DNA of 57,933 bases from assembly GCA_001805645.1 (NCBI GenBank), contig MHGQ01000049.1, positions 6,283 to 64,215 of the forward strand, read 5' to 3'. Under the pieces are notes generated by a model that was not told the DNA's origin, searched no databases, and was given only the letters and a program-made list of their open reading frames with translations. Source of the stretch: Omnitrophica WOR_2 bacterium RIFCSPHIGHO2_02_FULL_50_17 (GTDB lineage Bacteria; Omnitrophota; Gorgyraeia; Zapsychrales; Zapsychraceae). This document shows, one piece after another, positions 3,110 through 39,035 of the stretch. Numbering within the stretch: position 1 is the stretch's first letter; every line of letters begins with the position of its first letter. The translations under genes were made by a program, and so were the position numbers.

Positions 3110-3550
3110 TTATTTTACTCCCTCTTTGCCCAAATGCAGTTCCAAATCACGCGTGCCGTCATTTAAGAGCACCTTGTCCGGTTTTATGTCCAAAACCGTG
3201 CAGGGGCCGATCCTGCCTCCTATTTCAACAATCTCTCCGTCGATAATCGCGCTGGGCCTGACCGTATCCCACAAAATACCGTTGAGGATAAGCCGCTGAG
3301 GTCCGCCGGAAGAAGAACTGACAAAAGGATTCCTTCCCCAGTCTTCAAATGTACTCTTTTTCTTCGGGGGCACAGGAGTTGTGGGAATAGACCCGCTTAT
3401 TTCCACTGCGCCAGGAAGGATATTCTGAGAATCCGAACCCTGGCTGGGACGCGGCCCGGATCCCAGTACCCGAAACGCACGCACCCACACCAAAATCCCA
3501 AGGACGACAAGGACAGGCAATATAATCTTTAGCGTTTTTTCCCTGTTCAT
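3110..3550 (-). CDS. PilP/GspB-like type IV filament assembly protein
   Basis: N-terminal TM, Pro-rich linker, RNPF motif, LNGILW...AIIDG beta domain; follows pilO-like gene. Confidence 0.65.
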   Translation of the reverse strand: MNREKTLKIILPVLVVLGILVWVRAFRVLGSGPRPSQGSDSQNILPGAVEISGSIPTTPVPPKKKSTFEDWGRNPFVSSSSGGPQRLILNGILWDTVRPSAIIDGEIVEIGGRIGPCTVLDIKPDKVLLNDGTRDLELHLGKEGVK

Positions 3551-3552
3551 GG

Positions 3553-4083
3553 CTATGGCCTTAAATACACATCCAGCGTCAAATTCGATCGGACGCGGGG
3601 AAGAATGGACTCCTCCCGTCGTATCGCAAACTTTTTGACCGCGACGATGCCTTCCGTCGAGTCTTCCAGGACCCCCAGAAACAGCCCCAAATCTTTGTAT
3701 TGCGACTCAATTTCCATGCCAATGGGCAGGCGTTGATACGCCGGATTATCTGTCTTTTCAATTTCCAGCGGCGTGATAGACAAAAAGTTGATGTTGAAGG
3801 CCTTCCCCTGTTTTGTGATTTCATCCATAACCGAAGAGACCTCTTCACGCGCCAGCAAACGCCCTTTCAGAGAAATGCCCCTGCCCTTCTCCAGGGTGCG
3901 ATGCACCGTGTCTAATTCCTGCTCAAGGACGCGCAGTCTCTCGCCGGCCAGACGGACCTTGCCGGCCAGCGGCCATATGAAAATTATAGCAACAAGGATA
4001 ACAACCGCCCCTGCCGCCGACATTATTATAAGTTTACTGTTCCATTTCATGGCTGTCCCCGCCAGGATCATTCGGCCTCGCAA
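3553..4083 (-). CDS. pilO: PilO-like alignment subcomplex protein
   Basis: TM + coiled coil + ferredoxin-like part (LPIGMEIESQYKDLGLFL); downstream of PilMN. Confidence 0.75.
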   Translation of the reverse strand: MRGRMILAGTAMKWNSKLIIMSAAGAVVILVAIIFIWPLAGKVRLAGERLRVLEQELDTVHRTLEKGRGISLKGRLLAREEVSSVMDEITKQGKAFNINFLSITPLEIEKTDNPAYQRLPIGMEIESQYKDLGLFLGVLEDSTEGIVAVKKFAIRREESILPRVRSNLTLDVYLRP

Positions 4084-5765
4084 AGAATTTCAAACTCCGA
4101 GGACTCCGTCTCCTTTTCCTTCTTCTTGGATGTCACCAATTTGACATTCTTGAACAGACCTCTCTCGAGAGTCAGCATAAACTGAGAAAGGATAACCTCC
4201 GCATCCCCCCCGCCTCTGATGACCCCTTTCAGAGACAGCTTATCATCCTCTGCATTCAACTCAACCAGATACATGCGGTCCGCAACAACATGGCTCAGCT
4301 CTTTTAAAACCTCCTGCCAATGGGGACTTTTCTGCCTTGCCTCGGCCATGAGGATTTTCATTTGGTATTCGCTGAACTGCGAAAGGAGACTCTGATATTC
4401 CCGCCCGGCGGCCTCCAGTTTCTTCTCGGACACGCCCCATTGGATACGCATCCCCGCATAAAAGAGGAACGTGATAACAACGAGCGCCGTCGCGACGGCT
4501 TCCAGGGAGACCTTCTCGATGAATCGTTTGGTTTCTTGCTTCAATTCCAGAGGCAGGAGATTGATATTTTCCTCATCCGTAAAATTCGCCGATTCTGCCC
4601 CATGCATCGCCGCACCGACGGCCAAATTGAATAAATGGGATCCCCGGCCATCGCTGACACCTGCCGCCGCAAGTATCTTGGCTGTCCCGAAGGCGTCGCC
4701 GACGGATACTTCAACCCCCAGCTCGCTCTTTAAAAACGCCGCCAATCCCTTCAAAGCGGCGCCGCCGCCGAATAAAAGAATCTTATCCACCTTGCCCCCG
4801 ATGGATTCTTCCCGATAAAAATCCAAAGAGCCCTCAATATCGCCGACCAATTGCTCAACTTCAGGCCGGATAAGGGAAAGGACCTGATTCATCGAAATCT
4901 TTCCGTCAATCCTCTCTTCGGATTCAACCTCAGGGAGACCGCATGTCTTTTTCACCCGCTCTGCCTCTTCCAAACTGAGATCCACTTTCCCCTGCTCCGA
5001 GAGCAGGGTGCTCCTTAGGGCCTCGGTGATATTCCTGGAGGCCACGGACAGCTTACGGGAAAAGACAAGGCGCGCCTGTCTGTAGATATTCAGCTCTGTC
5101 ATGGCCGCCCCCATCTCAACGACGGCAACGGTCTCTTCCCCGTGCCTGCCGGCAGGCACGGCGTACTGTTTTGATCCCGCTAACAGGCTCCGCATGGCCT
5201 CGGAGACAGGAATAAGAGAGGCCGCCTTAAGACCGCACTGCGAAAAGACGGATAATAGATTCTCAACAGTCTCCTTCGGAGAGGCAGCAAGCATAATGCG
5301 CAGCTTTTTACCCCCTTTGTCCGCAACCTCACCGGTGACGGCAAAGTCCAAAACCGCCTCCTCTAAAGGGAAAGGAATGGAATTTTTGGCCTCCCAGTGC
5401 ACGGCCTCTGCCAATTCCTGCCTAGGAATAAGCGGCGTTATCAAATTTCTCGTGCATGTCTTGGGGCAGCTCACGACAGAAACGATCTTCGCCTTCTGAG
5501 TATCCATGCCACACAAGGCTTCTTTCAATGTGCGGACAACAGCCGGCGGCCTATCCTTCTCCTCAACGGAAGGAATTTCAGCGTAAGTGATTTTATGCAA
5601 AGACCATCCTCCTAAGGTCTCGACGATCTGAGCCGCTTTAACCGAACTCGCGCCGATATCGATGCCGATAATAGAAGACGGCCGGCCTAACTTGGCGAGA
5701 TAAGATTTGCACCTAACGAACACTTCTCGGTTTATCTTTAACATCTGTGTTACCTTAACTTTCAC
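4068..5765 (-). CDS. pilM: PilM-PilN fusion protein
   Basis: Actin-like GIDIGASSVK and LFGGGAALKGL motifs, then INLLP, a TM helix and a PilN-like periplasmic domain in one ORF. Confidence 0.88.
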   Translation of the reverse strand: MKVKVTQMLKINREVFVRCKSYLAKLGRPSSIIGIDIGASSVKAAQIVETLGGWSLHKITYAEIPSVEEKDRPPAVVRTLKEALCGMDTQKAKIVSVVSCPKTCTRNLITPLIPRQELAEAVHWEAKNSIPFPLEEAVLDFAVTGEVADKGGKKLRIMLAASPKETVENLLSVFSQCGLKAASLIPVSEAMRSLLAGSKQYAVPAGRHGEETVAVVEMGAAMTELNIYRQARLVFSRKLSVASRNITEALRSTLLSEQGKVDLSLEEAERVKKTCGLPEVESEERIDGKISMNQVLSLIRPEVEQLVGDIEGSLDFYREESIGGKVDKILLFGGGAALKGLAAFLKSELGVEVSVGDAFGTAKILAAAGVSDGRGSHLFNLAVGAAMHGAESANFTDEENINLLPLELKQETKRFIEKVSLEAVATALVVITFLFYAGMRIQWGVSEKKLEAAGREYQSLLSQFSEYQMKILMAEARQKSPHWQEVLKELSHVVADRMYLVELNAEDDKLSLKGVIRGGGDAEVILSQFMLTLERGLFKNVKLVTSKKKEKETESSEFEILCEAE

Positions 5766-6626
5766 CTACCAGCTTGTCACAAATTTTCCCTGACCGAGAA
5801 TGATACTTTGAATCTCATTGCTGTTATAAGTTTCGTATTCGGATATAGACGGATCTGTTCTGGTGCTTGCCGTGATGTATATCCGCTGATAACGCACCGT
5901 CACAGCATCAAAATCAACGGTTGTTACGCTTCCGTTAATCGTCTCAACCGGGTTTGAAACCGCGCTCCAACTTGTGCCGTTGCTGGAAGACTGTATCTGG
6001 TATGTCGTAATTTTATTTCCCGGGGGCTCGTCGAACGCCACCCTGTCAAATGTCTGAGCGCTCCCTAAATCCATCGCCAGCCACTCGGGACTTCCGGCGG
6101 AAGGAACGCCATTGGCACGCCATTTTGTGCTGGTTTGGCCGTCATTGGCTTTATCAGGAGTATCAACCCCCTTGTAAGAAGAGGCTGATGCCGTTGCCGT
6201 CAGGGAAAGATTGGTCAACCCTGAGGTTGTAGTAGAGATATTTCTCTCCTCCACCCTTCTCTTAGCAACCGGATTGGTATCATTGGGGACATATCCCTCA
6301 GAGACAATGGTATATGTGCTATCGCCGTTATCCGCGGTCGTTACCGTATAGGTGCCTGCGCCGAAGGAGATATCCGATTCCCCCCACCCCACACTCTGTC
6401 CGTCCGTCGTCAATGCCCACCGCGCCTTGGCCAGACCCGCCTCAGCGACATAGTAAGCCTTCGCATCTATAAGCTCGGCGCCGGCATTTTTTATATCATC
6501 ACTCACCATAACCACAAACGCCAGGGCAATGATCGTTAACCCCACCAGGACAGCGAAGGCGGCGATGAGGGCTGCCCCCTTTTCCTCTCCCCTCAAATCT
6601 AAACTGGGCTTGCGATGTCCATTCAT
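5766..6626 (-). CDS. PilX-like minor pilin with C-terminal F5/8 type C (discoidin) domain
   Basis: G|AALI prepilin site lacking Glu5; KAYYVAEAGL PilX motif; ASASS...ANDGQTSTKW...EWLAMDLG...RYQRIYIT...ISEYE discoidin pattern. Confidence 0.8.
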   Translation of the reverse strand: MNGHRKPSLDLRGEEKGAALIAAFAVLVGLTIIALAFVVMVSDDIKNAGAELIDAKAYYVAEAGLAKARWALTTDGQSVGWGESDISFGAGTYTVTTADNGDSTYTIVSEGYVPNDTNPVAKRRVEERNISTTTSGLTNLSLTATASASSYKGVDTPDKANDGQTSTKWRANGVPSAGSPEWLAMDLGSAQTFDRVAFDEPPGNKITTYQIQSSSNGTSWSAVSNPVETINGSVTTVDFDAVTVRYQRIYITASTRTDPSISEYETYNSNEIQSIILGQGKFVTSW

Positions 6627-7135
6627 TGGTTTCTTGCATAAGCGCTGGACGCCAGGGTCAATGTCTCATCGTCTTTGTCCATTGTCAAACTAACCGTAAT
6701 AACCCGTATCCCATCACGTTTGGTCTGGGTGCTTGTACCGCCGGGCGGATTCAAGAGGGTATTGTTCACATCCAGGTAAGAAAGCCCAAAGGTCTGGACA
6801 TTCGAGGCCAGGATGGTTGTAACCGCCCCTTCCATCCTTATCAGATTACTGCCGCTGGTATCGAGTGACACCGTCTCATCGGTCCCATTGCCGTCCAAGT
6901 CCGCCAAAAAAGTGATCTGATTATCCTTGGCATCCGTGATGCTGTTGGTCTGGCCCAGCTCGCGGATCATCCGTGCCATCGCTGAGCCCGCCTCCTGCCG
7001 GATCTGGGTCCGGTCCAAGGCCGTGCCCCATGTTTTGATTGCGACGGCAGAAATCCATAAGACAGAGACGGCCAGAATCGAAAACAAGACGATGACAATA
7101 AGAACTTCGGTTAAGGTAAATCCTTTATTCATCAA
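6623..7135 (-). CDS. PilW/GspJ-like minor pilin
   Basis: KG|FTLTEVLIV class III signal. Confidence 0.85.
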   Translation of the reverse strand: MMNKGFTLTEVLIVIVLFSILAVSVLWISAVAIKTWGTALDRTQIRQEAGSAMARMIRELGQTNSITDAKDNQITFLADLDGNGTDETVSLDTSGSNLIRMEGAVTTILASNVQTFGLSYLDVNNTLLNPPGGTSTQTKRDGIRVITVSLTMDKDDETLTLASSAYARNQ

Positions 7136-7518
7136 TTTTTGGATATATAGGTGACAAGAGGGACACTCACCTCATTGGCCTTGAATGTCCAGTAGGTCGT
7201 CACCGTCACCTGCTTTAAATCCGTCTGCGCGGTGGCAACACTGACCTCTCTCTGAAAGCCGGCAAAACCCGATACGCTTGCTTTAGCCTCATTGACAATC
7301 CCGGTGTCAAAATCAAGATTTTTGATTTCCTCCAGCCTCCGTTGGGAAAGATTCACGGCAATGACGGTATTTTCCGCATCAACGCTCGTAGCGAGGGCGG
7401 TGCTGAAAAGTCCAAGAACAGCCATAACACCCACTGTGAAAACGATAAGGGTCAAGAGGATTTCCAGTAACGTGAAACCGAAGGTTCTGCGAAGCAAGCC
7501 GCACCTTTCCGATCGCAT
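7132..7518 (-). CDS. PilV/GspI-like minor pilin
   Basis: FG|FTLLEILLTL class III signal; LSQRRLEEIK helix. Confidence 0.85.
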   Translation of the reverse strand: MRSERCGLLRRTFGFTLLEILLTLIVFTVGVMAVLGLFSTALATSVDAENTVIAVNLSQRRLEEIKNLDFDTGIVNEAKASVSGFAGFQREVSVATAQTDLKQVTVTTYWTFKANEVSVPLVTYISKN

Positions 7519-7973
7519 CAGGGCTGGGCATCCCGTCCGGCGTTGGAGACATAGATACAGCTCGAACCGTTTGTTTCTACAACAGCATCGCTGGTGATGG
7601 TCGCACTGCCGTTGCCGCTGGATCCCACCGAATAAATGACATAAAACTTGCTGTTGGTTCCGCCCAGGACATACCCGTAATCGGCGCCGGTGGAGCTAAA
7701 GGGGTCTGTGGGAACGTAATCAATGATATTGGGAACAGCGGAGGCCAAAGCGGTCTGGAGGGCTGAGGAGCCTGTGGCCGGATAGGCATTATTATTATGG
7801 ATGTAATAACTCTCGACGGCCGCCTGCAAGGTTCTTAACTCCGCCTTGGCCTTGGCGATGTTGCCTTCGTCCTGCATCCCTTTAAAGCGCGGGAGGGCCA
7901 GTCCCACCAAAATGGAGATAACCGCAATGACAATCAATAATTCAATGATTGTAAAACCTTTTTTTCCCGTCAT
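7518..7973 (-). CDS. Major type IV (pseudo)pilin
   Basis: KG|FTIIELLIVIAVI; AKAELRTLQAAVESY; DPF and YSVG G-like motifs; directly after the platform gene. Confidence 0.88.
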   Translation of the reverse strand: MTGKKGFTIIELLIVIAVISILVGLALPRFKGMQDEGNIAKAKAELRTLQAAVESYYIHNNNAYPATGSSALQTALASAVPNIIDYVPTDPFSSTGADYGYVLGGTNSKFYVIYSVGSSGNGSATITSDAVVETNGSSCIYVSNAGRDAQP

Positions 7974-7995: not shown

Positions 7996-9213
7996 TTATG
8001 GCGACCTCAAGGTCTTAATCATATCAAACATCGGCAAAAGCATCGAGGCCATGATAAACCCCACGACAGCCCCCAGAATAACCAGCAGGATCGGCTCGAT
8101 AAGCGTCGTCAATTTGCGCACCGAGAATTTTATGGAAGTATCATACAGATCGGCCACCTTATTCAACATATAACCCAATCTCCCCGTTTCCTCTCCGACA
8201 GCAATCATCTGGACGGCATCCGGAGGGAATTCTTCGCTGACTTTGAGGGGTTCGGCAATTCTGTCGCCACGCTCAACGCCCTCGCGCACATTCCGGACGG
8301 CCTGGCCGATAATCTCGTTATTCACCACATCGCGGACAATGTCCAGAGACTGTAAGATAGGAACGCCGCTTTCGACAAGGGTCGCCAGGGTACGGCTGAA
8401 ACGGGAAATGATCACCTTGCGCACCAAAGGCCCGACCACCGGCACGTCTAGCTGCAGACGATCAAACCACAACCGTCCCATTTTTGTCTGAACATATTTA
8501 CGCATGCCAAAGATACCTAAGCCGAGTCCCAGCACAACAAGATACCATGCCTTTTTTAACCCCACGCCGAATTCATAGACAATAATGGTCGGCACGGGCA
8601 GAGACACGTTGCTCTCTTTGAAAATCTCCACGAACTGCGGGATGACAAATGTTACGATTAATATTATAACAAGAAGTCCCGCGGAAAGTAATATCATCGG
8701 ATAAAAAAAAGCACCCTGGATTTTCTGCCTTAGCTCCTCCTGTTGCTCGACATAAACCGCCAGGCGGCTTAACACCAAATTCAGTTTACCGCTTGTCTCG
8801 CCGGCCTTAACCGTATGGATAAAAACCTTAGGAAAAACACGCGCATGTTTCGCCAGGGCATCGGAGAAAGAGGACCCGGCCTCGACCGATCGGCCGACAT
8901 CCTCAATAATCCTTTTCAGCTTTTTGTTCTCGGTCTGCTGGGAGATTGTCCGCAGACTGCTGATAATCGTCAGACCCGACTCAATCATGTTTGCAAGCTG
9001 GATATTAAAAAAAATAATATCTTCAGACCGTATCCTCCTTAAGCGGCTGCCGATACCCTCCAGATTAATTCCCGGGATAGCCTCCCGAATCTGAATGGGC
9101 ATATAACCCATCTTCCGCAGTTTATCGGCCACCTCGGCCGGCGAGAGGGCGTCCAAAGTCCCCTGGACAAGCTTGCCGTTTTCGTCCCTTGCTTTGTAGA
9201 GATATGTGGACAT
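7996..9213 (-). CDS. pilC: Type IV pilus inner-membrane platform protein PilC/GspF
   Basis: MSTYLYKARDENG start at 9213 (the ORF track extension to 9297 is translated repeat); GETSGKL and GEETGRL F-domain motifs. Confidence 0.95.
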   Translation of the reverse strand: MSTYLYKARDENGKLVQGTLDALSPAEVADKLRKMGYMPIQIREAIPGINLEGIGSRLRRIRSEDIIFFNIQLANMIESGLTIISSLRTISQQTENKKLKRIIEDVGRSVEAGSSFSDALAKHARVFPKVFIHTVKAGETSGKLNLVLSRLAVYVEQQEELRQKIQGAFFYPMILLSAGLLVIILIVTFVIPQFVEIFKESNVSLPVPTIIVYEFGVGLKKAWYLVVLGLGLGIFGMRKYVQTKMGRLWFDRLQLDVPVVGPLVRKVIISRFSRTLATLVESGVPILQSLDIVRDVVNNEIIGQAVRNVREGVERGDRIAEPLKVSEEFPPDAVQMIAVGEETGRLGYMLNKVADLYDTSIKFSVRKLTTLIEPILLVILGAVVGFIMASMLLPMFDMIKTLRSP

Positions 9214-9297
9214 AGAAACTAAAGAACTAAGAAACTCAGAAACTAAAGAACTAAGAAACTCAGAAACCGAAAAATGAAAAACCAGAGAACTCAACAA
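9212..9297. repeat. Downstream arm of 8-nt periodic repeats (AGAAACTA/AAGAACTA/AGAAACTC)
   Basis: Perfect 24-nt tandem AGAAACTAAAGAACTAAGAAACTC at 9214-9237 and 9238-9261, then degenerate units. Confidence 0.95.
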
Positions 9298-12113: not shown

Positions 12114-12134
12114 CGTCTTTCCCTCCCCTTGTAA

Positions 12135-12193: not shown

Positions 12194-12199
12194 TTGCCA

Positions 12200-24900: not shown

Positions 24901-24947
24901 AAATACCCTTGAGAATCCTTGTTTGTCCACGGCCCACATTACACTAT

Positions 24948-31360: not shown

Positions 31361-31368
31361 GCCTTGAC

Positions 31369-31821: not shown

Positions 31822-33066
31822 TCATGAGATCAACACGTTCATCCTAAGAATCGGAAGCAGCATGGCGATGACCGCAAATCCGACCAGGACAACAATTGCG
31901 ATAAGAACAACGGGCCCCAACAGCGATATCATCAACCGGACAGTCTGCTCGGACTGCCTCTCCAGCGTATCCGCCATCTTAAAGAGGCTTTCCTCCAGCC
32001 GTCCGGCCTCCTCCCCGACGGAAACCATGGAGACCGCCATCTCTGGGAAAAAAGCGCTTTTCTGAAACGCCGCCCTCAGCGTCGATCCGTCGCCCACCTC
32101 ATGCGATATTCCTCGGATGGCCTCGCTTAATACCGTATTACCGACAACAGGATACACCGCATTTAAGGCAGAGGTGATGGGAACCCCGTTTTCCAGCAGC
32201 GCGCCTAATGTCCGCGCAAACCGCCCGATTTCAACGACCTTTATAAATTCGCCCAGGAAAGGAAGCCGCAGTTTCCAATCGTCAAACCACAAACGCCCCT
32301 TTGCAGAATTGACCCATCGATTCCCATATATCCCCCCTAGGACGATAACGCTGAACAGCCACCACCAATGGCGGGCAAAAAATCCGCTCACGCGCATCAA
32401 CACAAGAGTCGGCAGAGGCAGAGCCTCATCAAAATCATCAAACATAATGGACAAACGGGGGATGACGAAGACCAGAAGGACAACCACCGTCAAAACGCCC
32501 ACCGCAAGAATCAATAAGGGGTAAGTCAGGCTTGAGCGGACTTTGCTGCGTATCTCATAATCCTTTTCAAGATGGCTGGCGAGCCGCTCCAGCACCTTAT
32601 CCAAATGCCCGCCCACCTCGCCGGTTCTGGCCATATTCACATAAAAGGGGGAAAACAAATCCGGGTGCCTCGCCAGCGCCCCGGAAAACGAACCGCCGTT
32701 CTGAACAAAATGATACATATCATCCACCATATCGCGCAACGGCGAACTTCTCAGTTGATGCAGGACGATCTGCAATGCCCTTAAAAGGGGGACAGAGGCG
32801 CCGACCAGATCGCTGATCTGCCTTGTCAATAACAGAATCTGCTGAGGACCTGCCCTCCGTGGCCCTATCCACGAAGACTTTAAAGTGCGCTGAAGGCTTG
32901 CGTCTTGTTCCTTTCCAGCCTCCGCGGCCTCCACAAGGGTCACATCAATGGGTGCCAGGCCCTGCCGAATAATTTGGACAACGGCATTATCCAGATTCGA
33001 GGACTCGACAATGCCGCTCACAACCTTATCCGGGCCTCCCTTGGCCTTGTATCGAAACGCCGGCAT
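31822..33066 (-). CDS. gspF: Type II secretion platform protein GspF
   Basis: MPAFRYKA start at 33066 with strong SD; GEVGGHL and GEEAGRL motifs. Confidence 0.93.
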   Translation of the reverse strand: MPAFRYKAKGGPDKVVSGIVESSNLDNAVVQIIRQGLAPIDVTLVEAAEAGKEQDASLQRTLKSSWIGPRRAGPQQILLLTRQISDLVGASVPLLRALQIVLHQLRSSPLRDMVDDMYHFVQNGGSFSGALARHPDLFSPFYVNMARTGEVGGHLDKVLERLASHLEKDYEIRSKVRSSLTYPLLILAVGVLTVVVLLVFVIPRLSIMFDDFDEALPLPTLVLMRVSGFFARHWWWLFSVIVLGGIYGNRWVNSAKGRLWFDDWKLRLPFLGEFIKVVEIGRFARTLGALLENGVPITSALNAVYPVVGNTVLSEAIRGISHEVGDGSTLRAAFQKSAFFPEMAVSMVSVGEEAGRLEESLFKMADTLERQSEQTVRLMISLLGPVVLIAIVVLVGFAVIAMLLPILRMNVLIS

Positions 33067-33140
33067 CCTGCCCTCTTCCTCCTCCTCACAACCCACAGCA
33101 CATTCTCATCCGTTCAATGAGCTGCCATGACGTTATAAGG

Positions 33141-34841
33141 TTAATTTTCCTCTTCCTGCGTCACCCGTAAAACCTCTTGGATCGTTGTGATCCCTTTCCT
33201 GACCTTTTCCCAGCCGGCCTGACGCAGCGTCCTCATCCCGCATGCAACAGCCCTTTCTTTAAGCCGGCCCGCGGCTGCCCGCTCCAGGATCAGCTGACGG
33301 ATGGCATCATTAAAAATAAAAAATTCATAGATGGCCTCCCGTCCGCTGAAGCCGGTAAAATTGCAGGCCTTGCATCCCTTGCCTTCGTAAACATCTCTCG
33401 TCGAAGAGATATCCGCCTCTGAGCCAAAGTCTTTGATCATCTCAGGCGTTACCTGAACCGGCATCTTACATTTGGGACAGATAATACGGACCAAACGCTG
33501 GGCGATAAAATCCTCCACCGTGCTGGTAATCAGATAAGGCTCCACCCCCATGTCCAAAAGCCTCGTGACGCCGCTGGCGGCGTCATTGGTGTGCAGCGTG
33601 GAGAAAATCAAATGACCCGTCAAGGCAATCTGAACGGAGATCTGGGCGGTCTCCCTATCGCGGACCTCACCCACCATCATAATATCGGGATCGTGCCTGA
33701 GCATCGAACGCAGGCCATGGGCGAAACTCAGGCCTATCGCCGGATTGACCTGAATCTGGATAATCCCTTTAAGCTGATACTCGATAGGGTCCTCAATGGT
33801 GATAATCTTTTTCTCCTGCGTATTGATATGCGCCAGACAAGAGTAAAGGGTTGTGGTCTTTCCCGAACCCGTCGGGCCCGTCAAGAATATAATCCCATGC
33901 GGTTTCTTAATCAAACCTTCCAAGAGACTTTTCTCTCTTTCCGAAAGTCCCAATTCCTCAAGGCTGTAAAGCCGGGTGGTATTGAGAATACGCAGGACAA
34001 CGCTCTCCCCGTAAGGTGTCGGAATAAACGAAACCCTTAAGTCAAGGTCGATGTCCCCCACACACACCTTAAACCGGCCGTCCTGCGGCATCCTCTTCTC
34101 GGCGATGTTCAGGTTCGATAGAATCTTAATGCGGGAGACAATCGCCTCCCGGAAATGTTTGATGTCGGGGGGGACGCGCGCATCGTATAAAACCCCGTCC
34201 ACGCGGTAGCGCACCTGCAGCCCGCCCTCAAAGGGCTCAATATGGATATCCGTTGCGCGATCCCTATAGGCCTCCAGGAGAATCTGGTTGAAGAATTTGC
34301 TGATGGAGGCCTCGGACTGTGTCTCCTCGATATTGGTGACCTCGCGGGCGGCCTGGACAACCGGCTGAGCGGTATCCATCATCCGCTCAATCGTCTCGGC
34401 CCCGATGCCGTAATACCGGCGGATGGCCTCCAGAATTTCCCTCTGTCCCGACAAAACAGGATTTAACCGGGCGTCCACCACAAGCCCTATTTCATCCAAA
34501 AGATGGATATCCCAAGGCCTCGTTGTTGCAATCGTGAGTGTATCGTTTTCTAACCGTAAGGGGATAACCTGATAATGACTGACAAACTGGGCGGGGATTT
34601 TTTTTATAACCTCAGCGGAAATTTCGATATCTCTGAGAGTGACATAAGCCACTCCCATCTCGTGGGCCAGGACCGGCAAAATCGCGGTCTCATCGTCGAT
34701 GAAACCAAGCTCCAAAAGGATTACCTTAAGCTCTTTTCCTGTCTCTTCCTGTTTCTTAAGGGCGAGACCCAGCTGCTCGGAGGTGATGATATGTTTGTCA
34801 ACAAGCAACGGCCCTAAAACTTTACTCTCAGGAAGGGTCAT
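33141..34841 (-). CDS. gspE: Type II secretion ATPase GspE
   Basis: ATDIHIEP, GPTGSGKTTT, LRHDPDIMMVGEVRD, TGHLIFSTLHTN, CPKC/CKAC. Confidence 0.95.
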   Translation of the reverse strand: MTLPESKVLGPLLVDKHIITSEQLGLALKKQEETGKELKVILLELGFIDDETAILPVLAHEMGVAYVTLRDIEISAEVIKKIPAQFVSHYQVIPLRLENDTLTIATTRPWDIHLLDEIGLVVDARLNPVLSGQREILEAIRRYYGIGAETIERMMDTAQPVVQAAREVTNIEETQSEASISKFFNQILLEAYRDRATDIHIEPFEGGLQVRYRVDGVLYDARVPPDIKHFREAIVSRIKILSNLNIAEKRMPQDGRFKVCVGDIDLDLRVSFIPTPYGESVVLRILNTTRLYSLEELGLSEREKSLLEGLIKKPHGIIFLTGPTGSGKTTTLYSCLAHINTQEKKIITIEDPIEYQLKGIIQIQVNPAIGLSFAHGLRSMLRHDPDIMMVGEVRDRETAQISVQIALTGHLIFSTLHTNDAASGVTRLLDMGVEPYLITSTVEDFIAQRLVRIICPKCKMPVQVTPEMIKDFGSEADISSTRDVYEGKGCKACNFTGFSGREAIYEFFIFNDAIRQLILERAAAGRLKERAVACGMRTLRQAGWEKVRKGITTIQEVLRVTQEEEN

Positions 34842-35651
34842 CTATGATATTCCGGCGCTCAACCCCGCCGTCGGCGGACTCAACGCCTCCCGAACGGCCT
34901 TAACAACGCTCTCTTTGTCATCGGTTTTTCTGATAAAGCCCCAAGCCCCCGCCTTGAGGGCGCTTGGGCGTCCCTCCTCTATACTTTCTTCACCGCAAAT
35001 AATGAAAGAAAAATCTTTCAAAGACGATATTCCCTTGATAATCTCCATAAGTTTATCGGCACCCACCCCATCCAATTGAACCTTAAGGATAACCGCATCC
35101 GGTTTGAGGCGCAGGACATGGTTAACGCCCTCGGCTATCGTATTGGCGATGTAGACTTCGTAACCGCTTCCCGTCAGCATCCCCTCCAATTTTGAGCCAA
35201 GAAACACATCGTTTTCAAGGATCAATATTTTCTTCTTCATGCCGGCGCTGATATCAATGCTTTTTGTCTTGGATTGCTTCTCCCGGGCCCTATACAAGAC
35301 CTTTTTCACTCTCGCCAGCAGATCCTCGGCATCAAAAGGCTTTATGATGAAATCATCCACCTCTATGACCTCAAAATAATCGTGCATCTGGCCGCGGGCG
35401 GTCAGGACAATAAAGGGAATCTCTTTGCCGAAGTCGCTGCCGCGCAATTTCTGCATCAATTGATTGCCGTCCATATTCGGCATCAGGATATCCGAAATGA
35501 TCAGATCCGGTTTAACCTCAGTTGCGGTTTGAAAGCCCTTCTGGCCGTCCTCGGCCTGATGGACCTCGTATCCGGCCGTCTCCAGCTCCAGGCTCAGCAT
35601 CATCCTCATATGGCTTTCATCTTCGACAATGAGAATCTTTTTTTTATCCAT
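34842..35651 (-). CDS. Tandem receiver protein (REC + pseudo-REC)
   Basis: First REC canonical (SDILMP); second has VILKVQ in place of the phosphoacceptor Asp. ORF track start is 35672. Confidence 0.88.
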   Translation of the reverse strand: MDKKKILIVEDESHMRMMLSLELETAGYEVHQAEDGQKGFQTATEVKPDLIISDILMPNMDGNQLMQKLRGSDFGKEIPFIVLTARGQMHDYFEVIEVDDFIIKPFDAEDLLARVKKVLYRAREKQSKTKSIDISAGMKKKILILENDVFLGSKLEGMLTGSGYEVYIANTIAEGVNHVLRLKPDAVILKVQLDGVGADKLMEIIKGISSLKDFSFIICGEESIEEGRPSALKAGAWGFIRKTDDKESVVKAVREALSPPTAGLSAGIS

Positions 35652-35679
35652 ATCTTCCACGCCCCCCTGCAATAGACAA

Positions 35680-38253
35680 TTAAGAAATTCCCGGCTTGGG
35701 AACGATAAACGAGAACGTAGAGCCTTTTCCTACTTCGCTGACAACGCTGATCCGTCCCCCGTGCAACCCCACCAAGGATTTAACGATATTGAGACCTAAC
35801 CCCGTTCCATACATGCCGGGGCCGTAGGTCCGCTCCCCCTGATAGAATTTCTCAAAGAGTCTTGGCAGATCCTCCTGCGGAATTCCCACGCCTGTATCGA
35901 TGACGGAAAATTTAACGTTTGTCTCCTCCTCCTCAACGGTAACGGTGATTTTTCCTTTTTCCGGCGTAAACTTAAAGGCATTGCTGATCAGATTCGAAAG
36001 GATTTGCATGAATCTCATCTTATCGATATCGAGTATAATCGATTTTGGAGGGACATCCAAACAGAAATTGATTTCTTTGGCCTTGACCCTCAATGCCCAC
36101 CCGCGGCAATTCTCTTGGACCAGTTCCGCCACATCCACCGATTCCCTGTAGAGGGGCATCTTACCGGCCTCGATCTTGGAGACATCGAGAATATCATCAA
36201 TGAGAAACGCCAGGCGGTCGATATTGGAGGCGGCCATGTCGACAATCTCCTTCTGCTGGGAGGTCATTTCGCCGGCTTTGCCCCGGCGCAGCAACGACAG
36301 CCCTTCTTTGGAAATCGCCAAGGGAGTGCGCAATTCATGAGAGACCGTTGAAACAAATTCGTCTTTCATCTGCATAACCTTTTTAATTTCCTCTTCGGAG
36401 TGTTTGCGTTCGGTGATATCGCGAAGATAACCGGTAAATATCGGCGGGCCTTGTGCCGGGATACGGACAATCGATAGTTCGACGGGGAATTCGGAACCGT
36501 CAGAGCGAAGGGCTGTCAACTCCAAACGTTTATTAAGGACAGGGCCTTCGCCGGTTGCCAGATAACGCGCCATACCGCGGCGATGGCCTTCCCGCAGAGA
36601 GGGAGGGATAATCACATCCGCCATTTCTCTACCGATAACCTCCTTACGGCTGAAGCCAAATGTCCTCTCGGCGGCGGGGTTAAATTCCGTGATCCGCCCC
36701 TCATGATTGATGGATATAATACAATCCATCGCCGAATCCACAATCACGGCCTTGTGCGCCTCAGCCTCATGGATAAGACGCTCAATTCTCTTGCGGTCTG
36801 TAATATCGTGAACCAGGCAGACAATCCCCCGGATTTGACGGTCATCGTCAAACATGACTGATGCCGAGAACTCAACGGGAATTTCTCGATTTTCCCGGGT
36901 CAAAAACGTCCTCTCGTCACTGCGGATAGCGTGATCGGCGGCCACTTTTTCAAGAATTAGTTCCTCTCCTGCGCCAACAAATAAACTGTGAAGGGATTGG
37001 CCTGTCAATTCTTCCTGCGTATAACCGGACAATTGGGCCGCCCTGTCATTCACCATCTGAATCATGGCGCCGGCATCCACCACAAACAGGGCATCGGCCA
37101 TATTCGATATAATCGAATGAATATGCGCCTTCTCCCTCAACAGCTGCATGCGATGATCTTTTAAATCCTTGATCATCCTGTTAAAGGCCTCCGCCAATAT
37201 CCCCAATTCATCCCCGCCTGTGTATCTCACCTCCTGCTCCAAATCCAAATCCCCGTTGGCCACCCGCTCGGCCACATACGCCATCTTCAGCACGGGTCTT
37301 GAAATATTTTTAGATGCCTTAAGGGCAATTAGGATAACACAGGCAACGACCACAAAAAAAATCCATGCAATAAGCGAACTTAAGCGCGTTACGGGTATGA
37401 AGACGACTCCCGCCTCCTGAACGACCAAAACCGTCCAGCCTAACCCCTTAAGATCTCCATACCTTTGTGAATAACTGTATCCGATAAAGTAATTTTTCCC
37501 TTCAGCATCTTTCCTCTCGAGCAAATACCCCTCTTTTTGCTGCCGGGCTAAACGGACGGATTCAAATCCCTGCCGAGTCAAATCGGCCTCAAGCCGCAGC
37601 CCCTGAGTGTCCTTCGTCCCTGCGATCACCAGACCATTTTTGCGCAAGAGCAAAATACGCCCCACAGGCAGAACGCCTCTTATGAACGAGGTCTCCAGCA
37701 CCTGCGAGAGTTCTTGAGTCCTCCAGCGTGCCCTGACCACGCCGATGATTCCCCTCCCCTGTTCATAGGCAGATCGTATAGGGAACGCAAAATCCATCCC
37801 CCCTTCGTGTGTAACGGGATCTTGCTCCATGTCCCCTATGTAAGATAAGCCGGCCATCGCCTCCCTAAAAAACCTTTCCCGAGAGAAACTCTGCCCCACC
37901 GGGGAAAAACTCGATGCGACAACTTCACCGGAAACATTCAAGACATCCATCCGGGAAAAAATCCCGTATTCCTTCTGAGCGCGCACCAAAAACGAGACAA
38001 TGCGTCCATCAACATCTCCCGTCACGACATCCTGCATGAATTCCAATCCGGTCCAGCGGCGGACATCTTCGGCGATCTCAAAAACTTTGTCGTCTATCTT
38101 CTCTATAGAGCGCCGGGCGACAAACTGAAAATACGATCCCATAATCCGGCGCAAGGAAGTTACGCCGTTATAATAGGCAATAATACTAATAACAAGTAAA
38201 GGGACGAGAGACAAAAGGAGAAGCAGGGTGGTAATCTTAGGCCGAAGTCGCAT
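35680..38253 (-). CDS. Sensor histidine kinase (Cache-HAMP-PAS-PAS-HisKA-HATPase)
   Basis: 2 TM, HAMP, two PAS, VSHELRTPL, NLISNAFKF, DTGVGI, GTGLGL. Confidence 0.94.
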   Translation of the reverse strand: MRLRPKITTLLLLLSLVPLLVISIIAYYNGVTSLRRIMGSYFQFVARRSIEKIDDKVFEIAEDVRRWTGLEFMQDVVTGDVDGRIVSFLVRAQKEYGIFSRMDVLNVSGEVVASSFSPVGQSFSRERFFREAMAGLSYIGDMEQDPVTHEGGMDFAFPIRSAYEQGRGIIGVVRARWRTQELSQVLETSFIRGVLPVGRILLLRKNGLVIAGTKDTQGLRLEADLTRQGFESVRLARQQKEGYLLERKDAEGKNYFIGYSYSQRYGDLKGLGWTVLVVQEAGVVFIPVTRLSSLIAWIFFVVVACVILIALKASKNISRPVLKMAYVAERVANGDLDLEQEVRYTGGDELGILAEAFNRMIKDLKDHRMQLLREKAHIHSIISNMADALFVVDAGAMIQMVNDRAAQLSGYTQEELTGQSLHSLFVGAGEELILEKVAADHAIRSDERTFLTRENREIPVEFSASVMFDDDRQIRGIVCLVHDITDRKRIERLIHEAEAHKAVIVDSAMDCIISINHEGRITEFNPAAERTFGFSRKEVIGREMADVIIPPSLREGHRRGMARYLATGEGPVLNKRLELTALRSDGSEFPVELSIVRIPAQGPPIFTGYLRDITERKHSEEEIKKVMQMKDEFVSTVSHELRTPLAISKEGLSLLRRGKAGEMTSQQKEIVDMAASNIDRLAFLIDDILDVSKIEAGKMPLYRESVDVAELVQENCRGWALRVKAKEINFCLDVPPKSIILDIDKMRFMQILSNLISNAFKFTPEKGKITVTVEEEETNVKFSVIDTGVGIPQEDLPRLFEKFYQGERTYGPGMYGTGLGLNIVKSLVGLHGGRISVVSEVGKGSTFSFIVPKPGIS

Positions 38254-38321
38254 AGAAAATCTGTGCAGAGGAGCCCTCAGGGGGCTGCGCAGGCATCATC
38301 CCTGTTATGACGATTGACCGG

Positions 38322-39035
38322 CTAATTTGCCTTAAGATACTTGTCAATCTCGCTTAAGAGATGTTCCGAATCAAAAGGTTTTGTGATGTATTTCTCGGCG
38401 CCGAGGACGCCGCCGATAATCTTATCCGCCTCCTGATCCCGGGCGGTCAGCATGATGATGGGTGTTTTGGTATCGTTTTTCTCTCTGCGGATCTTTCGGC
38501 AGACCTCGTAGCCGTTGAGTTTGGGAAGGCTTAAATCCAGGATAATTAAATCGGGCCATTCCTCCAGATATTTAGTAAATCCTTCCTGGCCGTCACAGGC
38601 GCTGACGACGTCATATTCCTTCTGTTTCAACTCATAGGTCAACAAATCCACCATATCTTTTTCATCTTCAATGATAAGGATCTTCTTTCTGCTCATCAGG
38701 AAGTTGAATAACCTCTGGCAGTAAAAATACACAAATCTTTCCAAGTCCTGTTTGGCGATATCTACAATCTTAACCCCGGCCCTGGCCGGCTCTGCCCCTT
38801 GGGGCCCCTCAGACCAGGTGACCTTTGCCTTCATGGTTATCTTCTCATTATTATCAAGCTTAATCTGGATCTCAGCCTGTGTCCCTAATTCGATTTTATC
38901 GTTGGTCAGGAAACATATACCGCCGGGGGAGATATCATAAACTTTTGTGGAAAAACAAATCTCTGAAGGGCCGTAAATCTTGCACTGGGCAGGAAGATCG
39001 ATTCTAATCCTTTTATACTGTCGTCTCTCTTTCAC
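38322..39035 (-). CDS. PilZ-receiver fusion protein
   Basis: RRQYKR and DISPGG PilZ motifs, then a full REC (IEDE, LDLSLPKLNG, LTA, KPF). Confidence 0.9.
   Translation of the reverse strand: MKERRQYKRIRIDLPAQCKIYGPSEICFSTKVYDISPGGICFLTNDKIELGTQAEIQIKLDNNEKITMKAKVTWSEGPQGAEPARAGVKIVDIAKQDLERFVYFYCQRLFNFLMSRKKILIIEDEKDMVDLLTYELKQKEYDVVSACDGQEGFTKYLEEWPDLIILDLSLPKLNGYEVCRKIRREKNDTKTPIIMLTARDQEADKIIGGVLGAEKYITKPFDSEHLLSEIDKYLKAN

What the first reader, a model, noticed from the sequence alone, without database searches (positions are those of the whole stretch)
3110..39035. Two parallel type IV filament machines, each headed by kinase and receiver genes
Seen: both clusters run kinase > receiver(s) > ATPase > platform > pilins > MN fusion > O > P-like. 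The right one has GspG/K, ExeA and the only secretin. The left one has PilM with an intact nucleotide loop and a lectin-like tip, but no secretin or PilT in the window. Inference: an ancient duplication yielding a secretion-type and an adhesion-type filament that may share one secretin and a phosphorelay. This would fit contact-dependent (predatory or epibiotic) behaviour.
Basis: partly seen in the sequence, partly recalled or inferred. Interest (0 to 1): 0.65.

Follow-up and report, generated by a model that had tools for sequence, protein, structure and literature searches.

The report
Tandem secretion-like and pilus machines, Omnitrophota
An uncultured groundwater bacterium (phylum Omnitrophota) carries a secretion-type and a pilus-type type IV filament machine side by side in a conserved layout with one outer-membrane pore gene between them, but whether the two share that pore is unproven because the phylum also has a second pore family.

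Summary
Positions 3110-39035 (minus strand) hold two complete type IV filament gene sets.

The right set is T2SS-like. It has GspG-K pseudopilins, a PilM-PilN fusion that has lost its nucleotide motifs (GspL-like), PilO/GspM, an ExeA-like ATPase, a GspB/C-type docking protein and the window's only secretin.

The left set is T4P-like. It has an ATP-motif-intact PilM-PilN fusion, a discoidin-tipped minor pilin and its own docking protein, but no secretin and no PilT.

The DNA is from Omnitrophota (class Velamenicoccia). The order "right set, secretin, sensory block, left set" is verified in three deeply diverged lineages.

The two sets form separate orthologue groups that split before the sampled radiation. 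Their ATPases are as far apart as PilBs of different phyla. A sister relationship gets only 42% bootstrap, although both share the rare full-length PilM-PilN fusion.

The kinase/receiver head is conserved for the left set but not for the right.

"Shared secretin" is unproven. A second secretin family is widespread in the phylum and sits in cis with left-type operons in 7 of about 24 loci. The source MAG is only about 70% complete.

Verdict: a real, conserved, modestly novel variant of known systems.

The parts
38322..39035 (-). PilZ-REC protein at the head of the right cluster. The c-di-GMP motifs RxxxR (RRQYKR) and DxSxxG (DISPGG) are intact.
   Evidence: Pfam PilZ 4e-15 and Response_reg 2.6e-28. 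Motifs read from the translation.
35680..38253 (-). Membrane sensor histidine kinase: dCache-HAMP-PAS-PAS-HisKA-HATPase.
   Evidence: Its kinase core is 36% identical to that of the left hybrid kinase.
34842..35672 (-). Double-receiver protein (REC-REC).
33141..34841 (-). R-type assembly ATPase: MshEN N-domain, T2SSE core, CxxC...CxxC zinc site.
   Evidence: T2SSE 1.5e-126. GspE 599 and PilB 569 bits, both below the curated cut-offs. Lies outside the proteobacterial GspE clade.
31822..33096 (-). R-type platform protein (GspF/PilC family).
   Evidence: T2SSF 4.7e-63. GspF 348 bits, below the 424-bit cut-off.
31369..31806 (-). Major pseudopilin GspG.
   Evidence: TIGR01710 at 142.7 bits, above the 88.85-bit cut-off. 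T2SSG 6e-33.
30875..31390 (-). GspH-like minor pseudopilin.
   Evidence: Pfam GspH 23.2 bits, above the 21-bit cut-off. Prepilin motif G|FTIIE.
30490..30903 (-). GspI-like minor pseudopilin, assigned by position and prepilin motif G|SLLLE.
   Evidence: No Pfam hit. Conserved in L008 and L009. Motif.
29721..30485 (-). GspJ-like minor pseudopilin.
   Evidence: N_methyl. The L009 orthologue carries a weak T2SSJ match.
28642..29724 (-). GspK tip pseudopilin (no Glu5).
   Evidence: T2SSK_1st 1.2e-19.
27198..28637 (-). Degenerate PilM-PilN fusion, working like GspL. Nucleotide motifs are lost, about 42 residues are deleted, and the INLIP junction motif, TM helix and PilN domain are kept.
   Evidence: hhalign to the L-type fusion family: 99.2%, E 6e-20 over 455 columns.
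26653..27192 (-). PilO/GspM-like protein.
   Evidence: PilO 1.6e-7; T2SSM 27.9 bits. hhalign to the L-type PilO family: 92%.
25568..26389 (-). ExeA/GspA/MshM-like AAA ATPase with the ATPase domain only. It is the first gene of a separable outer-membrane module.
   Evidence: AAA_22 2.5e-16. TIGR03015 164 bits, below cut-off. 75-82% identical in L007-L009. A 263-nt gap upstream contains a promoter-like site.
24948..25577 (-). Bitopic GspB/GspC-type protein with a C-terminal HR (secretin-docking) domain.
   Evidence: T2SSC 9.6e-5. The joint profile hits the 3OSS GspC HR domain at E 0.0018; T2SSC and T2SSB each match 6 of 9 members.
23284..24939 (-). Secretin (N0, two Secretin_N domains, secretin domain). 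It is the only secretin in the window.
   Evidence: GspD 262 and PilQ 261 bits, both below cut-offs. 60-76% identical across many Omnitrophota. It always follows ExeA-like and P-like genes.
21513..23207 (-). Sensor protein (HAMP-PAS-coiled coil) without a kinase domain. It is a paralogue of the sensor part of the left hybrid kinase.
   Evidence: 38% identity over 375 aa.
20876..21328 (-). DUF6036 nucleotidyltransferase, probably a passenger gene. It is also found ahead of the sensory block in L017.
18853..20787 (-). Polytopic PAS histidine kinase, first gene of the left sensory block.
18195..18653 (-). Single-domain receiver.
17000..18238 (-). Two-receiver protein.
16304..16975 (-). TM-HAMP-coiled-coil protein.
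12200..16288 (-). Hybrid sensor kinase: dCache-HAMP-PAS-GAF-PAS-HisKA-HATPase, a degenerate GGDEF domain, then REC.
   Evidence: No GG(D/E)EF motif in the translation. HK-GGDEF-REC proteins recur upstream of L-type operons.
11739..12200 (-). CheY-like single receiver.
   Evidence: Called as 124 aa in the MAG.
11375..11851 (-). CheY-like single receiver directly upstream of the L-type ATPase. This position is conserved.
   Evidence: A REC lies within 1.3 kb upstream of the ATPase in 17 of 22 metagenome loci and in all the loci inspected one by one.
9737..11356 (-). L-type assembly ATPase: MshEN N-domain, T2SSE core, shortened CxxC-x4-CxxC zinc site.
   Evidence: T2SSE 2.6e-141. PilB 630 and GspE 609 bits, both below cut-offs. 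Best PDB match is Geobacter PilB at 527 bits.
9298..9681 (-). Inserted 23S_rRNA_IVP (four-helix-bundle) gene. It is not part of the machine and is absent in relatives.
7996..9297 (-). L-type platform protein. The true start is probably Met29, near position 9213.
   Evidence: T2SSF 1.2e-61. Homologues align from residue 29 onward.
7518..7973 (-). L-type major pilin, GspG-like fold family, with prepilin motif G|FTIIE.
   Evidence: T2SSG 1.3e-7. TIGR01710 57 bits, below cut-off.
7132..7518 (-). Minor pilin (G|FTLLE).
6623..7135 (-). Minor pilin (G|FTLTE), distantly GspJ-like.
   Evidence: BLAST hit to the right-cluster J-like protein.
5766..6626 (-). Tip-type minor pilin (no Glu5, in the GspK/PilX position) carrying an inserted discoidin (F5/8 type C) lectin module.
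   Evidence: F5_F8_type_C 7e-18. The module is present in L019 and precisely absent in the closest relative L018.
4068..5765 (-). PilM-PilN fusion with intact actin-fold nucleotide motifs and the INLLP junction motif.
   Evidence: PilM_2 1.4e-38. TIGR01175 173 bits, above the 133-bit cut-off. Thermus PilM 2YCH at 2e-28. Motifs.
3553..4083 (-). PilO.
   Evidence: PilO 7.7e-8.
3110..3550 (-). Bitopic P-like protein: TM helix, WGRNPF motif, and a C-terminal HR/PilP-type docking domain.
   Evidence: No Pfam hit. hhalign to the right-cluster P family: 94%, E 1.2e-7. The joint profile hits the GspC HR domain of 3OSS.

Best explanation
This is a conserved super-locus of Omnitrophota (class Velamenicoccia). 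It encodes two anciently diverged type IV filament machines on one strand.

The upstream machine works like a type II secretion system. A PilB-like ATPase and platform assemble a GspG pseudopilus capped by GspH-I-J-K. A PilM-PilN fusion that no longer binds nucleotide acts as GspL, and a PilO homologue acts as GspM. A separable outer-membrane module follows: an ExeA-like ATPase, a GspB/C-type HR docking protein and a secretin.

The downstream machine works like a type IVa pilus. It has a PilB-like ATPase, a platform, a GspG-like major pilin and minor pilins. Its tip subunit carries an exchangeable adhesin cassette, here a discoidin lectin. It also has an ATP-motif-intact PilM-PilN fusion, PilO, and its own HR-type docking protein. 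Its output is set by a sensory block of histidine kinases, a hybrid kinase with a dead GGDEF domain, and CheY-like receivers placed directly before the ATPase. In one relative that block is a complete Che pathway.

Both machines need a prepilin peptidase encoded elsewhere. The pilus machine also needs a secretin that is not in its operon. That could be the neighbour's secretin, or a member of the phylum's second secretin family encoded elsewhere in the genome.

Shown: gene content, motifs, orthology groups and synteny. Inferred: secretion versus adhesion roles, docking to a secretin, and control by phosphorylation or c-di-GMP.
For: - Domain content.
- Source organism: a 99%-identical protein in the Omnitrophica MAG; taxonomy from the supplement of PMC10066038.
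- Two clean orthologue groups: L-type ATPases score 700-970 bits to L_E against 440-480 bits to R_E, and R-type ATPases show the reverse.
- Tandem order verified in the window, in L007+L005 and in L008+L019, which overlap on one 50.6-kb contig. All are flanked by the same GAPDH and SpoU/ABC genes.
- PilM motifs are kept in L-type and lost in R-type fusions.
- The R-type fusion is a full-length homologue of the L-type fusion.
- The P-like proteins are homologous to each other and best match the GspC HR domain that binds secretin N0.
- The tip adhesin cassette is present or absent between close relatives.
- A REC lies directly upstream of the L-type ATPase in 17 of 22 loci, and a kinase core within 4.5 kb in 16 of 22. 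One relative has a Che operon there.
- Both ATPases pass the NCBIfam MshE-related c-di-GMP-motif domain cut-off, and the PilZ motifs are intact.
Against: - No experimental or expression data exist; only DNA metagenomes hold the locus.
- The R-type ATPase is not in the GspE clade, and all its equivalog scores are below cut-off. 'Secretion' therefore rests mainly on the pseudopilin set.
- No substrate is identified.
- No PilT was found, so pilus retraction is unsupported.
- The first Arg of both MshEN motifs is replaced in both ATPases, so c-di-GMP binding is uncertain.
- The single-sequence AlphaFold models of the P-like proteins were too poor to confirm the fold.
- One relative's R-type cluster lacks gspG.
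Confidence: 0.7

Rival explanations
1. One reading: the pilus-type machine has no secretin of its own and shares the secretion-type machine's secretin. Two inner-membrane machines dock to one outer-membrane pore.
For: - The L cluster encodes an HR/PilP-type docking protein but no secretin.
- There is no second secretin and no remnant of one in the 58-kb window.
- In three verified lineages the L operon lies 10-12 kb downstream of the R-type secretin, on the same strand, with no second secretin between them.
- The closest relative, L018, also lacks a cis secretin.
- The ExeA-P-secretin genes form a separable module behind a 263-nt gap with a promoter-like site.
- Co-option of secretins between TFF systems is described as common (PMC6668835).
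Against: - A second secretin family (STN plus TPR-like tail, about 33% identical to the window's secretin) is widespread in the phylum: 910 hits at E<=1e-30.
- That family is encoded in cis with L-type operons in L002, L011, L016, L079, L080, L096 and L075. It is therefore the likely ancestral partner.
- The near-identical MAG is only about 70-74% complete, so a distant copy cannot be excluded.
- L-type docking domains from operons without a cis secretin are not clearly more R-like than the others.
Confidence: 0.3
2. The pilus-type machine uses a dedicated second-family secretin encoded elsewhere in the genome, for example with a third filament cluster. The tandem position next to the T2SS-like cluster would then be inherited gene order with no sharing of parts.
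For: - The second family is common and is the cis partner of L-type operons in 7 of about 24 classifiable loci.
- It also accompanies a third cluster type (L012, L017) that follows the same kind of sensory block.
- About 70% of L-type operons lack any cis secretin, so supply in trans is normal for this family.
- In L009 the R-type cluster stands alone at the same site, so the two machines are separable.
Against: No such gene has been seen for this species. It is absent from the 58-kb window and was not found by the genome-contig scan, which has low sensitivity.
Confidence: 0.45
3. The right cluster is not a secretion system but a second surface pilus of MSH-like type. The locus would then encode two adhesive pili.
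For: - The ATPase has an MshEN N-domain and lies outside the GspE clade.
- The ExeA-like ATPase has the AAA domain only, as I recall for MshM. A PilM-PilN fusion also occurs in MshI (from memory).
- JGI names several secretin orthologues MshL.
- The cluster lacks a prepilin peptidase, as MSH loci do (PMC6668835).
- 'T2SS' clusters of Bacteroidetes group with T4aP (PMC6668835).
Against: - GspG passes the equivalog cut-off, and GspK (T2SSK_1st) and GspH are recognised.
- MshL scores 194 bits, below its 250-bit cut-off.
- The PilM part has lost its nucleotide motifs, as in GspL.
Confidence: 0.2
4. The left cluster is a DNA-uptake (competence) pilus rather than an adhesin or motility pilus.
For: - Weak ComGC and ComGE similarity of the major pilin, 35-38 bits and below cut-offs.
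- The genome is reduced. From general knowledge, type IV pili are proposed to take up DNA in other ultra-small bacteria.
Against: - The tip subunit carries a lectin module that is swapped between lineages.
- A chemosensory pathway controls the operon in a relative.
- No comEA or comEC is found in the window.
Confidence: 0.12
5. The two clusters are a recent, lineage-specific tandem duplication.
For: Same gene order and same strand; the ATPases are 45% identical.
Against: - L_E is closer to Geobacter PilB (527 bits) than to R_E (485 bits).
- Both types have separate orthologues at 61-89% and 70-76% identity in distant relatives.
- The MN fusions give no BLAST hit to each other.
Confidence: 0.02

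Closest known systems
Canonical type II secretion system (Gsp/Eps/Pul of Proteobacteria)
   Same: Right cluster: the gene order E-F-G-H-I-J-K-L-M; a GspG that passes the equivalog cut-off; a GspK tip; an HR-domain protein; a secretin; an ExeA/GspA-like ATPase.
   Different: - The ATPase lies outside the GspE clade and has a PilB/MshE-type MshEN N-domain.
- The 'GspL' is a degenerate PilM-PilN fusion that still carries the PilN INLLP motif, and it shows no detectable similarity to E. coli GspL.
- The GspC-like protein lacks a PDZ or coiled-coil domain.
- There is no GspO or GspN.
- The secretin is short (about 540 aa).
- The secretin and docking genes lie at the end of the cluster, not the start.
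Type IVa pilus (PilBC, PilMNOPQ; Myxococcus, Thermus, Geobacter)
   Same: Left cluster: a PilB-like ATPase whose best PDB hits are PilB proteins; PilC; PilM with nucleotide motifs (Thermus PilM at 2e-28); PilN; PilO; a secretin-docking protein; control by CheY-like receivers or a Che system, as in Pil-Chp.
   Different: - PilM and PilN are one polypeptide.
- The major pilin is GspG-like.
- The docking protein is a bitopic HR-type protein, not the lipoprotein PilP.
- There is no PilQ in the operon in most lineages.
- No PilT was found.
- The gene order is T2SS-like, in a single locus.
'Type-4a pilus' clusters reported for Omnitrophota (Seymour et al. 2023, PMC10066038; expressed in Velamenicoccus archaeovorus)
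   Same: Same phylum and class. That study reports at least one T4aP cluster in 135 of 141 Velamenicoccia genomes and interprets it as host or prey attachment.
   Different: The main text has no mention of T2SS, secretin or PilT. It does not separate the two machine types, the tandem super-locus, the two secretin families or the degenerate PilM. The F-type ATPase it finds next to T4aP clusters is not in this window.
MSH pilus (Vibrio mshI-Q)
   Same: MshE-type ATPase with an MshEN domain; an ExeA-like AAA ATPase next to the secretin (MshM is mandatory in the MSH model, PMC6668835); a single locus; no prepilin peptidase.
   Different: The MshL model is below cut-off. The right cluster has a GspG/H/K pseudopilin set. 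No MshN-like TPR protein is present.
Akkermansia Amuc_1098-1102 pilus-like cluster (Verrucomicrobiota)
   Same: The NCBIfam 'Amuc_1101 family PilM-like' model aligns over PilM and beyond in both fusions (110 and 72 bits). The Amuc_1098 secretin model also gives a hit.
   Different: All scores are far below the family cut-offs (650 and 750 bits), so the relationship is distant at best.

Membership tests
Type II secretion system | Major pseudopilin GspG | tested here: met
   31369-31806 scores 142.7 bits against TIGR01710, above the 88.85-bit cut-off.
Type II secretion system | Minor pseudopilins GspH, I, J and K | tested here: inconclusive
   GspK T2SSK_1st 71.5 bits (cut-off 26.2) and GspH 23.2 bits (cut-off 21) are met. 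The I- and J-like genes are assigned only by position, prepilin motif and a weak T2SSJ match in an orthologue.
Type II secretion system | ATPase belonging to the GspE family | tested here: not met
   TIGR02533 599 bits, below the 630-bit cut-off. The NJ tree puts it outside the 100%-supported E. coli/Vibrio GspE clade. The N-domain is MshEN type.
Type II secretion system | GspL and GspM assembly-platform proteins | tested here: inconclusive
   T2SSM 27.9 bits against a 27.8-bit cut-off. T2SSL 19.8 bits, below its 25.5-bit cut-off. The protein is a degenerate PilM-PilN fusion.
Type II secretion system | GspC (HR domain) and secretin GspD | tested here: inconclusive
   T2SSC 22.7 bits, below its 27-bit cut-off. 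The joint profile hits the 3OSS GspC HR domain at E 0.0018. The secretin domain is strong, but GspD scores 262 bits against a 351-bit cut-off.
Type II secretion system | Secretes folded periplasmic substrates | not testable with these tools
   No substrate can be assigned from the sequence.
Type IVa pilus | PilM with nucleotide-binding fold, PilN, PilO | tested here: met
   The left cluster scores TIGR01175 173 bits (cut-off 133), PilN 29.9 bits (cut-off 22.8) and PilO 33 bits (cut-off 22). Motifs are conserved.
Type IVa pilus | Assembly ATPase PilB | tested here: inconclusive
   TIGR02538 630 bits, below the 675.65-bit cut-off. The best PDB hits are PilB proteins. Tree placement is unresolved.
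Type IVa pilus | Retraction ATPase PilT | tested here: not met
   None in the window. The candidate near a relative's operon is CpaF-like. The rest of the genome could not be searched.
Type IVa pilus | PilP lipoprotein and PilQ secretin encoded with PilMNO | tested here: not met
   The P-like protein is a bitopic HR-type protein with no Pfam PilP hit. There is no secretin in the operon in the window or in about 17 of 24 related loci.
MSH pilus | [quoted passage not shown] | tested here: inconclusive
   The MshL model scores 194 bits, below its 250-bit cut-off. An MshEN domain and an MshM-like AAA ATPase are present. The MacSyFinder MSH profiles were not available.

The most novel reading that the evidence does not exclude
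In one branch of Velamenicoccia the pilus-type machine has lost its dedicated secretin. It now docks, through its own HR-domain protein, to the secretin of the adjacent T2SS-like machine. A secretion piston and an adhesive pilus would then take turns at one outer-membrane pore, under chemosensory and c-di-GMP control. Separately, the R-type 'GspL' is a PilM-PilN fusion caught after loss of nucleotide binding but before loss of the INLLP motif. That would be a living intermediate for how GspL arose from PilM+PilN.
Probability: 0.2. Interest if true: 0.7.

Novelty: new variant of a known kind. Interest (0 to 1): 0.42.

Why it matters
Omnitrophota are abundant, uncultured, ultra-small bacteria thought to live by attaching to or preying on other cells. 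Their 'type IV pili' are central to that idea but have been treated as one category.

This locus shows that the category contains at least two, probably three, distinct machines. They have different inferred roles, two secretin families, a conserved sensory input and a swappable lectin tip.

That gives concrete targets for proteomics or cryo-ET in Velamenicoccus enrichments: which filament is made on contact, what the tip binds, and which pore is used.

The degenerate PilM-PilN fusion is also a useful comparative case for the origin of GspL and of T2SS-like machines outside Proteobacteria.

Tried and rejected
- Exact look-up of the window's secretin ORF found nothing because the ORF start overshoots.
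- The genome-contig scan with the second-family secretin returned only 3 species. The protein search found hundreds of homologues, so the scan is too insensitive to say anything about the window's species.
- Matching 'longest contig' lengths between hit lists looked like evidence that genes share a contig. It failed in one case: the R-type secretin P0177 is not on L016. I therefore count only the three tandem lineages verified by coordinates or overlap.
- hhalign of the P, MN and O families against single E. coli GspB/C/L/M and HofM/N/O/P sequences gave nothing. The power is too low for this to count as evidence of absence.
- Single-sequence AlphaFold2 of both P-like proteins gave pLDDT 53 and 43, so I ran no fold search.
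- I tested whether docking domains of L-type operons without a cis secretin resemble R-type docking domains more closely. The score ranges overlap, so the test is inconclusive.
- I checked for a DGR around the Avd-like IVP gene. There are no template/variable repeats.
- Rfam found no c-di-GMP riboswitch or any other family.
- No RNA-seq runs hold the locus.
- Cluster-member names gave no taxonomy for the outgroup PilM-PilN fusions.
- The promoter/terminator scan is only suggestive: 12 promoter-like sites against 8.6 expected, and 22 terminator-like sites against 11 expected.
- The 421-aa ATPase near a relative's operon was considered as a PilT candidate and rejected. It is CpaF-like.

Full report
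**What is there**

All long ORFs of the window are on the minus strand.

The right cluster runs in this order:
- PilZ-REC, a sensor kinase and a REC-REC protein;
- an MshEN/T2SSE ATPase and a T2SSF platform;
- GspG (TIGR01710 at 143 bits, above its cut-off), then GspH-, I- and J-like pseudopilins and GspK;
- a PilM/PilN fusion and PilO/GspM;
- an ExeA-like AAA ATPase, a 209-aa protein with a weak T2SSC match, and a secretin.

A kinase-less HAMP-PAS sensor and a DUF6036 nucleotidyltransferase follow.

The left cluster starts with seven signalling genes: two kinases, one of them a 1362-aa hybrid with a degenerate GGDEF domain, a HAMP-coiled-coil protein, and four receiver proteins. It continues with:
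- an MshEN/T2SSE ATPase, an inserted 23S_rRNA_IVP gene and a platform;
- a GspG-like pilin, two minor pilins, and a pilin carrying a discoidin (F5/8 type C) domain;
- a PilM-PilN fusion, PilO and a 146-aa protein with no Pfam match.

The rest of the window holds GAPDH, Fmt, PriA, sugar/LPS enzymes, a SpoU methylase and an ABC transporter. No PilT, prepilin peptidase or second secretin is present. A permissive tblastn finds no remnant of another secretin.

**Source**

The left PilM-PilN fusion is 99% identical to a protein of 'Omnitrophica WOR_2 bacterium RIFCSPLOWO2_12_FULL_50_9'. The supplement of Seymour et al. 2023 places this MAG in Omnitrophota, class Velamenicoccia, order Zapsychrales, genus O2-FULL-52-10. 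Its completeness is about 70-74%. Only groundwater and soil DNA metagenomes contain the locus, so there is no expression evidence.

**How the two clusters relate**

Between clusters, the ATPases are 45% identical, the platforms 31% and the major pilins 29%. The MN fusions give no BLAST hit to each other.

On one scoring scale, the left ATPase is closer to Geobacter PilB (527 bits) than to its neighbour in the window (485 bits).

Mapping the window's proteins onto relatives' loci gives two clean orthologue groups. L-type ATPases are 61-89% identical to the left ATPase. R-type ATPases are 70-76% identical to the right one. Cross-scores are about 440-480 bits. The split therefore predates the sampled Omnitrophota, and a recent duplication is excluded.

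A bootstrapped NJ tree of the ATPase core used Myxococcus and Geobacter PilB, Thermus PilF, Vibrio and E. coli GspE, and HofB as references. The L-type, R-type, GspE and Geobacter+Myxococcus PilB clades each get 100% support. The R-type ATPases do not join the GspE clade. An L+R sister grouping gets only 42%. Duplication in the stem lineage is therefore neither shown nor excluded.

Three shared features favour common descent:
- Both clusters have a full-length PilM-PilN fusion with the PilN 'INLLP' motif at the junction (hhalign 99.2%, E 6e-20 over 455 columns).
- Both have a bitopic protein with the same small C-terminal domain (hhalign 94%, E 1.2e-7).
- Both have MshEN-type ATPases and the same gene order.

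**What each machine looks like**

In every R-type orthologue the PilM part has lost the three actin-fold nucleotide motifs and about 42 residues. Every L-type orthologue keeps them. The R-type protein therefore works like GspL, while being a PilM-PilN fusion by descent. Together with GspG-K, this makes the right cluster T2SS-like. Because its ATPase fails the GspE test, I do not file it as a canonical T2SS. Denise et al. 2019 note similar cases, such as the Bacteroidetes 'T2SS' that groups with T4aP.

A joint profile of the P-like domains best matches the GspC HR domain of PDB 3OSS, the domain crystallised bound to GspD N0-N1 (E 0.0018). Myxococcus PilP comes second. Pfam T2SSC and T2SSB each match 6 of 9 family members. 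By homology, both clusters therefore encode a secretin-docking protein. Single-sequence AlphaFold models were too poor to add to this.

The left cluster's fourth pilin lacks Glu5 and sits where GspK/PilX sits. Its discoidin module is present in the window and in L019. In the closest relative, L018, it is precisely excised, and the flanking N-terminal core and C-terminal strand are retained. More distant relatives have unrelated 360-582-aa proteins in that position. This is the pattern expected of an exchangeable tip adhesin.

**Synteny**

The order GAPDH, R-type cluster, ExeA/P/secretin, sensory block, L-type cluster, SpoU, ABC transporter is verified in three lineages whose L-type fusions are only 45-49% identical:
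- the window;
- L007 plus L005, where coordinate arithmetic fits the 78.9-kb contig;
- L008 plus L019, which overlap on one 50.6-kb contig.

In the L008/L019 lineage the sensory block is a complete Che operon, and GAPDH directly precedes the R-type ATPase. The right-hand 'kinase and receiver head' is therefore specific to the window's lineage.

The left-hand head is conserved. A CheY-like receiver lies within 1.3 kb upstream of the L-type ATPase in 17 of 22 metagenome loci, and a kinase core within 4.5 kb in 16 of 22. The receiver is also there in every locus I inspected individually.

In L009 the R-type cluster is followed directly by SpoU and ABC genes. There the sensory block and the L-type operon are absent from the site as a unit.

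**The secretin question**

The window's secretin is 60-76% identical across many Omnitrophota. In the three relatives inspected it follows the ExeA-like and P-like genes, so it belongs to the R-type cluster.

A second secretin family is also widespread in the phylum. It has an STN domain and a TPR-like tail, is about 33% identical to the window's secretin, and gives 910 hits at E<=1e-30. It lies directly upstream of REC and the L-type ATPase in L002, L011 (Ca. Zapsychrus exili), L016, L079, L080 and L096. In L075 it lies downstream. It also accompanies a third cluster type in L012 and L017.

Among L-type operons with enough upstream sequence, about 17 of 24 have no cis secretin. These include the window, L018, L007 and L019.

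Two readings remain. In the first, the tandem lineages lost the dedicated secretin and use the neighbour's. In the second, a second-family secretin is encoded elsewhere in the genome. The MAG's incompleteness and the low sensitivity of the genome scan prevent a decision. An indirect test on the docking domains was inconclusive. I put sharing at about 0.3.

**Regulation**

The PilZ domain of the first gene has intact RxxxR and DxSxxG motifs. Both ATPases pass the NCBIfam MshE-related c-di-GMP-motif domain cut-off, but the first Arg of the motif is replaced in both.

The hybrid kinase's GGDEF domain lacks the catalytic motif. Related HK-GGDEF(-REC) proteins recur upstream of L-type operons.

Kinase cores and receivers of the two clusters are 36-46% identical, which is ordinary for paralogues. 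Nothing indicates a shared phosphorelay.

**Comparison with the literature**

Seymour et al. 2023 report 'type-4a pilus' clusters in nearly all Omnitrophota and read them as attachment devices for a host-dependent or predatory life. Two preprints note T2SS/T4P-like genes next to giant ORFs.

None of the texts I searched separates the two machine types. None describes the tandem super-locus, the two secretin families, the degenerate PilM or the tip cassette.

**Verdict**

The finding is a real and conserved feature. It is a new variant of known kinds of system rather than a new kind, and of moderate interest.

Noticed in passing
window 9298-9681 and 9214-9300: A 23S_rRNA_IVP (Avd-like four-helix-bundle) gene is inserted between the L-type ATPase and platform genes. 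It is absent from all relatives inspected. An 8-nt-period tandem repeat follows it and inflates the platform ORF call by about 28 codons. No DGR-type template/variable repeats are nearby.
   Followed up: partly
L005 2600-9900; L002 8167-8916; L007 2395-8424; L018 2586-4078: Relatives' filament operons are repeatedly interrupted by selfish or defence-type genes: three PIN genes and Fic in L005, GIY-YIG in L002, AbiEii/DUF3800/DUF1016 in L007, and NYN plus a Fic fragment in L018. The L007 insert sits exactly in the PilO-ExeA gap.
   Followed up: no
window 26390-26652: The 263-nt gap between the PilO/GspM-like and ExeA-like genes holds a 14-15-bp perfect palindrome (26421-26454) and a TTGACA-18-AAAAAT promoter-like site. 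This suggests that ExeA, the P-like gene and the secretin form their own transcription unit.
   Followed up: partly
L008 2452-4214: In this relative the R-type cluster has no gspG between the platform and gspH genes, although the rest of the cluster is intact.
   Followed up: no
L017 8482-21713; L012 4125-10052: A third filament cluster type has the order PilN, 303-aa protein, second-family secretin, platform, pilin, ATPase. It lies next to a 1490-aa DUF2341/H_lectin protein and further pilins. In L017 it follows the same sensory block that precedes the L-type operon in L007.
   Followed up: partly
L009 18043-21647; L019 21498-21683: Very large secreted-looking proteins lie a few kb downstream of the super-locus in two relatives. 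One is a Peptidase_S8/He_PIG/Big_9/CARDB protein of more than 2038 aa. The other is a Peptidase_M64/Cadherin protein. They are possible substrates or partners.
   Followed up: no
window 21513-23207 vs 12200-16288: The kinase-less HAMP-PAS protein between the clusters has a periplasmic/HAMP region 38% identical to that of the left hybrid kinase. It may be a split or decoy sensor paralogue.
   Followed up: no
window 40398-42445: Two tandem GalT/HIT-like (galactose-1-phosphate uridylyltransferase family) paralogues have ORF calls that overlap by about 150 nt.
   Followed up: no
window 9737-11356: The L-type ATPase has a shortened tetracysteine site (CKGCEGKGCKAC, CxxC-x4-CxxC). The R-type ATPase and the reference PilB/GspE proteins have a spacer of about 30 residues.
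   Followed up: no
L002 18220-19485: A CpaF-like Tad ATPase lies 6.5 kb downstream of a relative's L-type operon. That genome therefore carries yet another filament system.
   Followed up: partly
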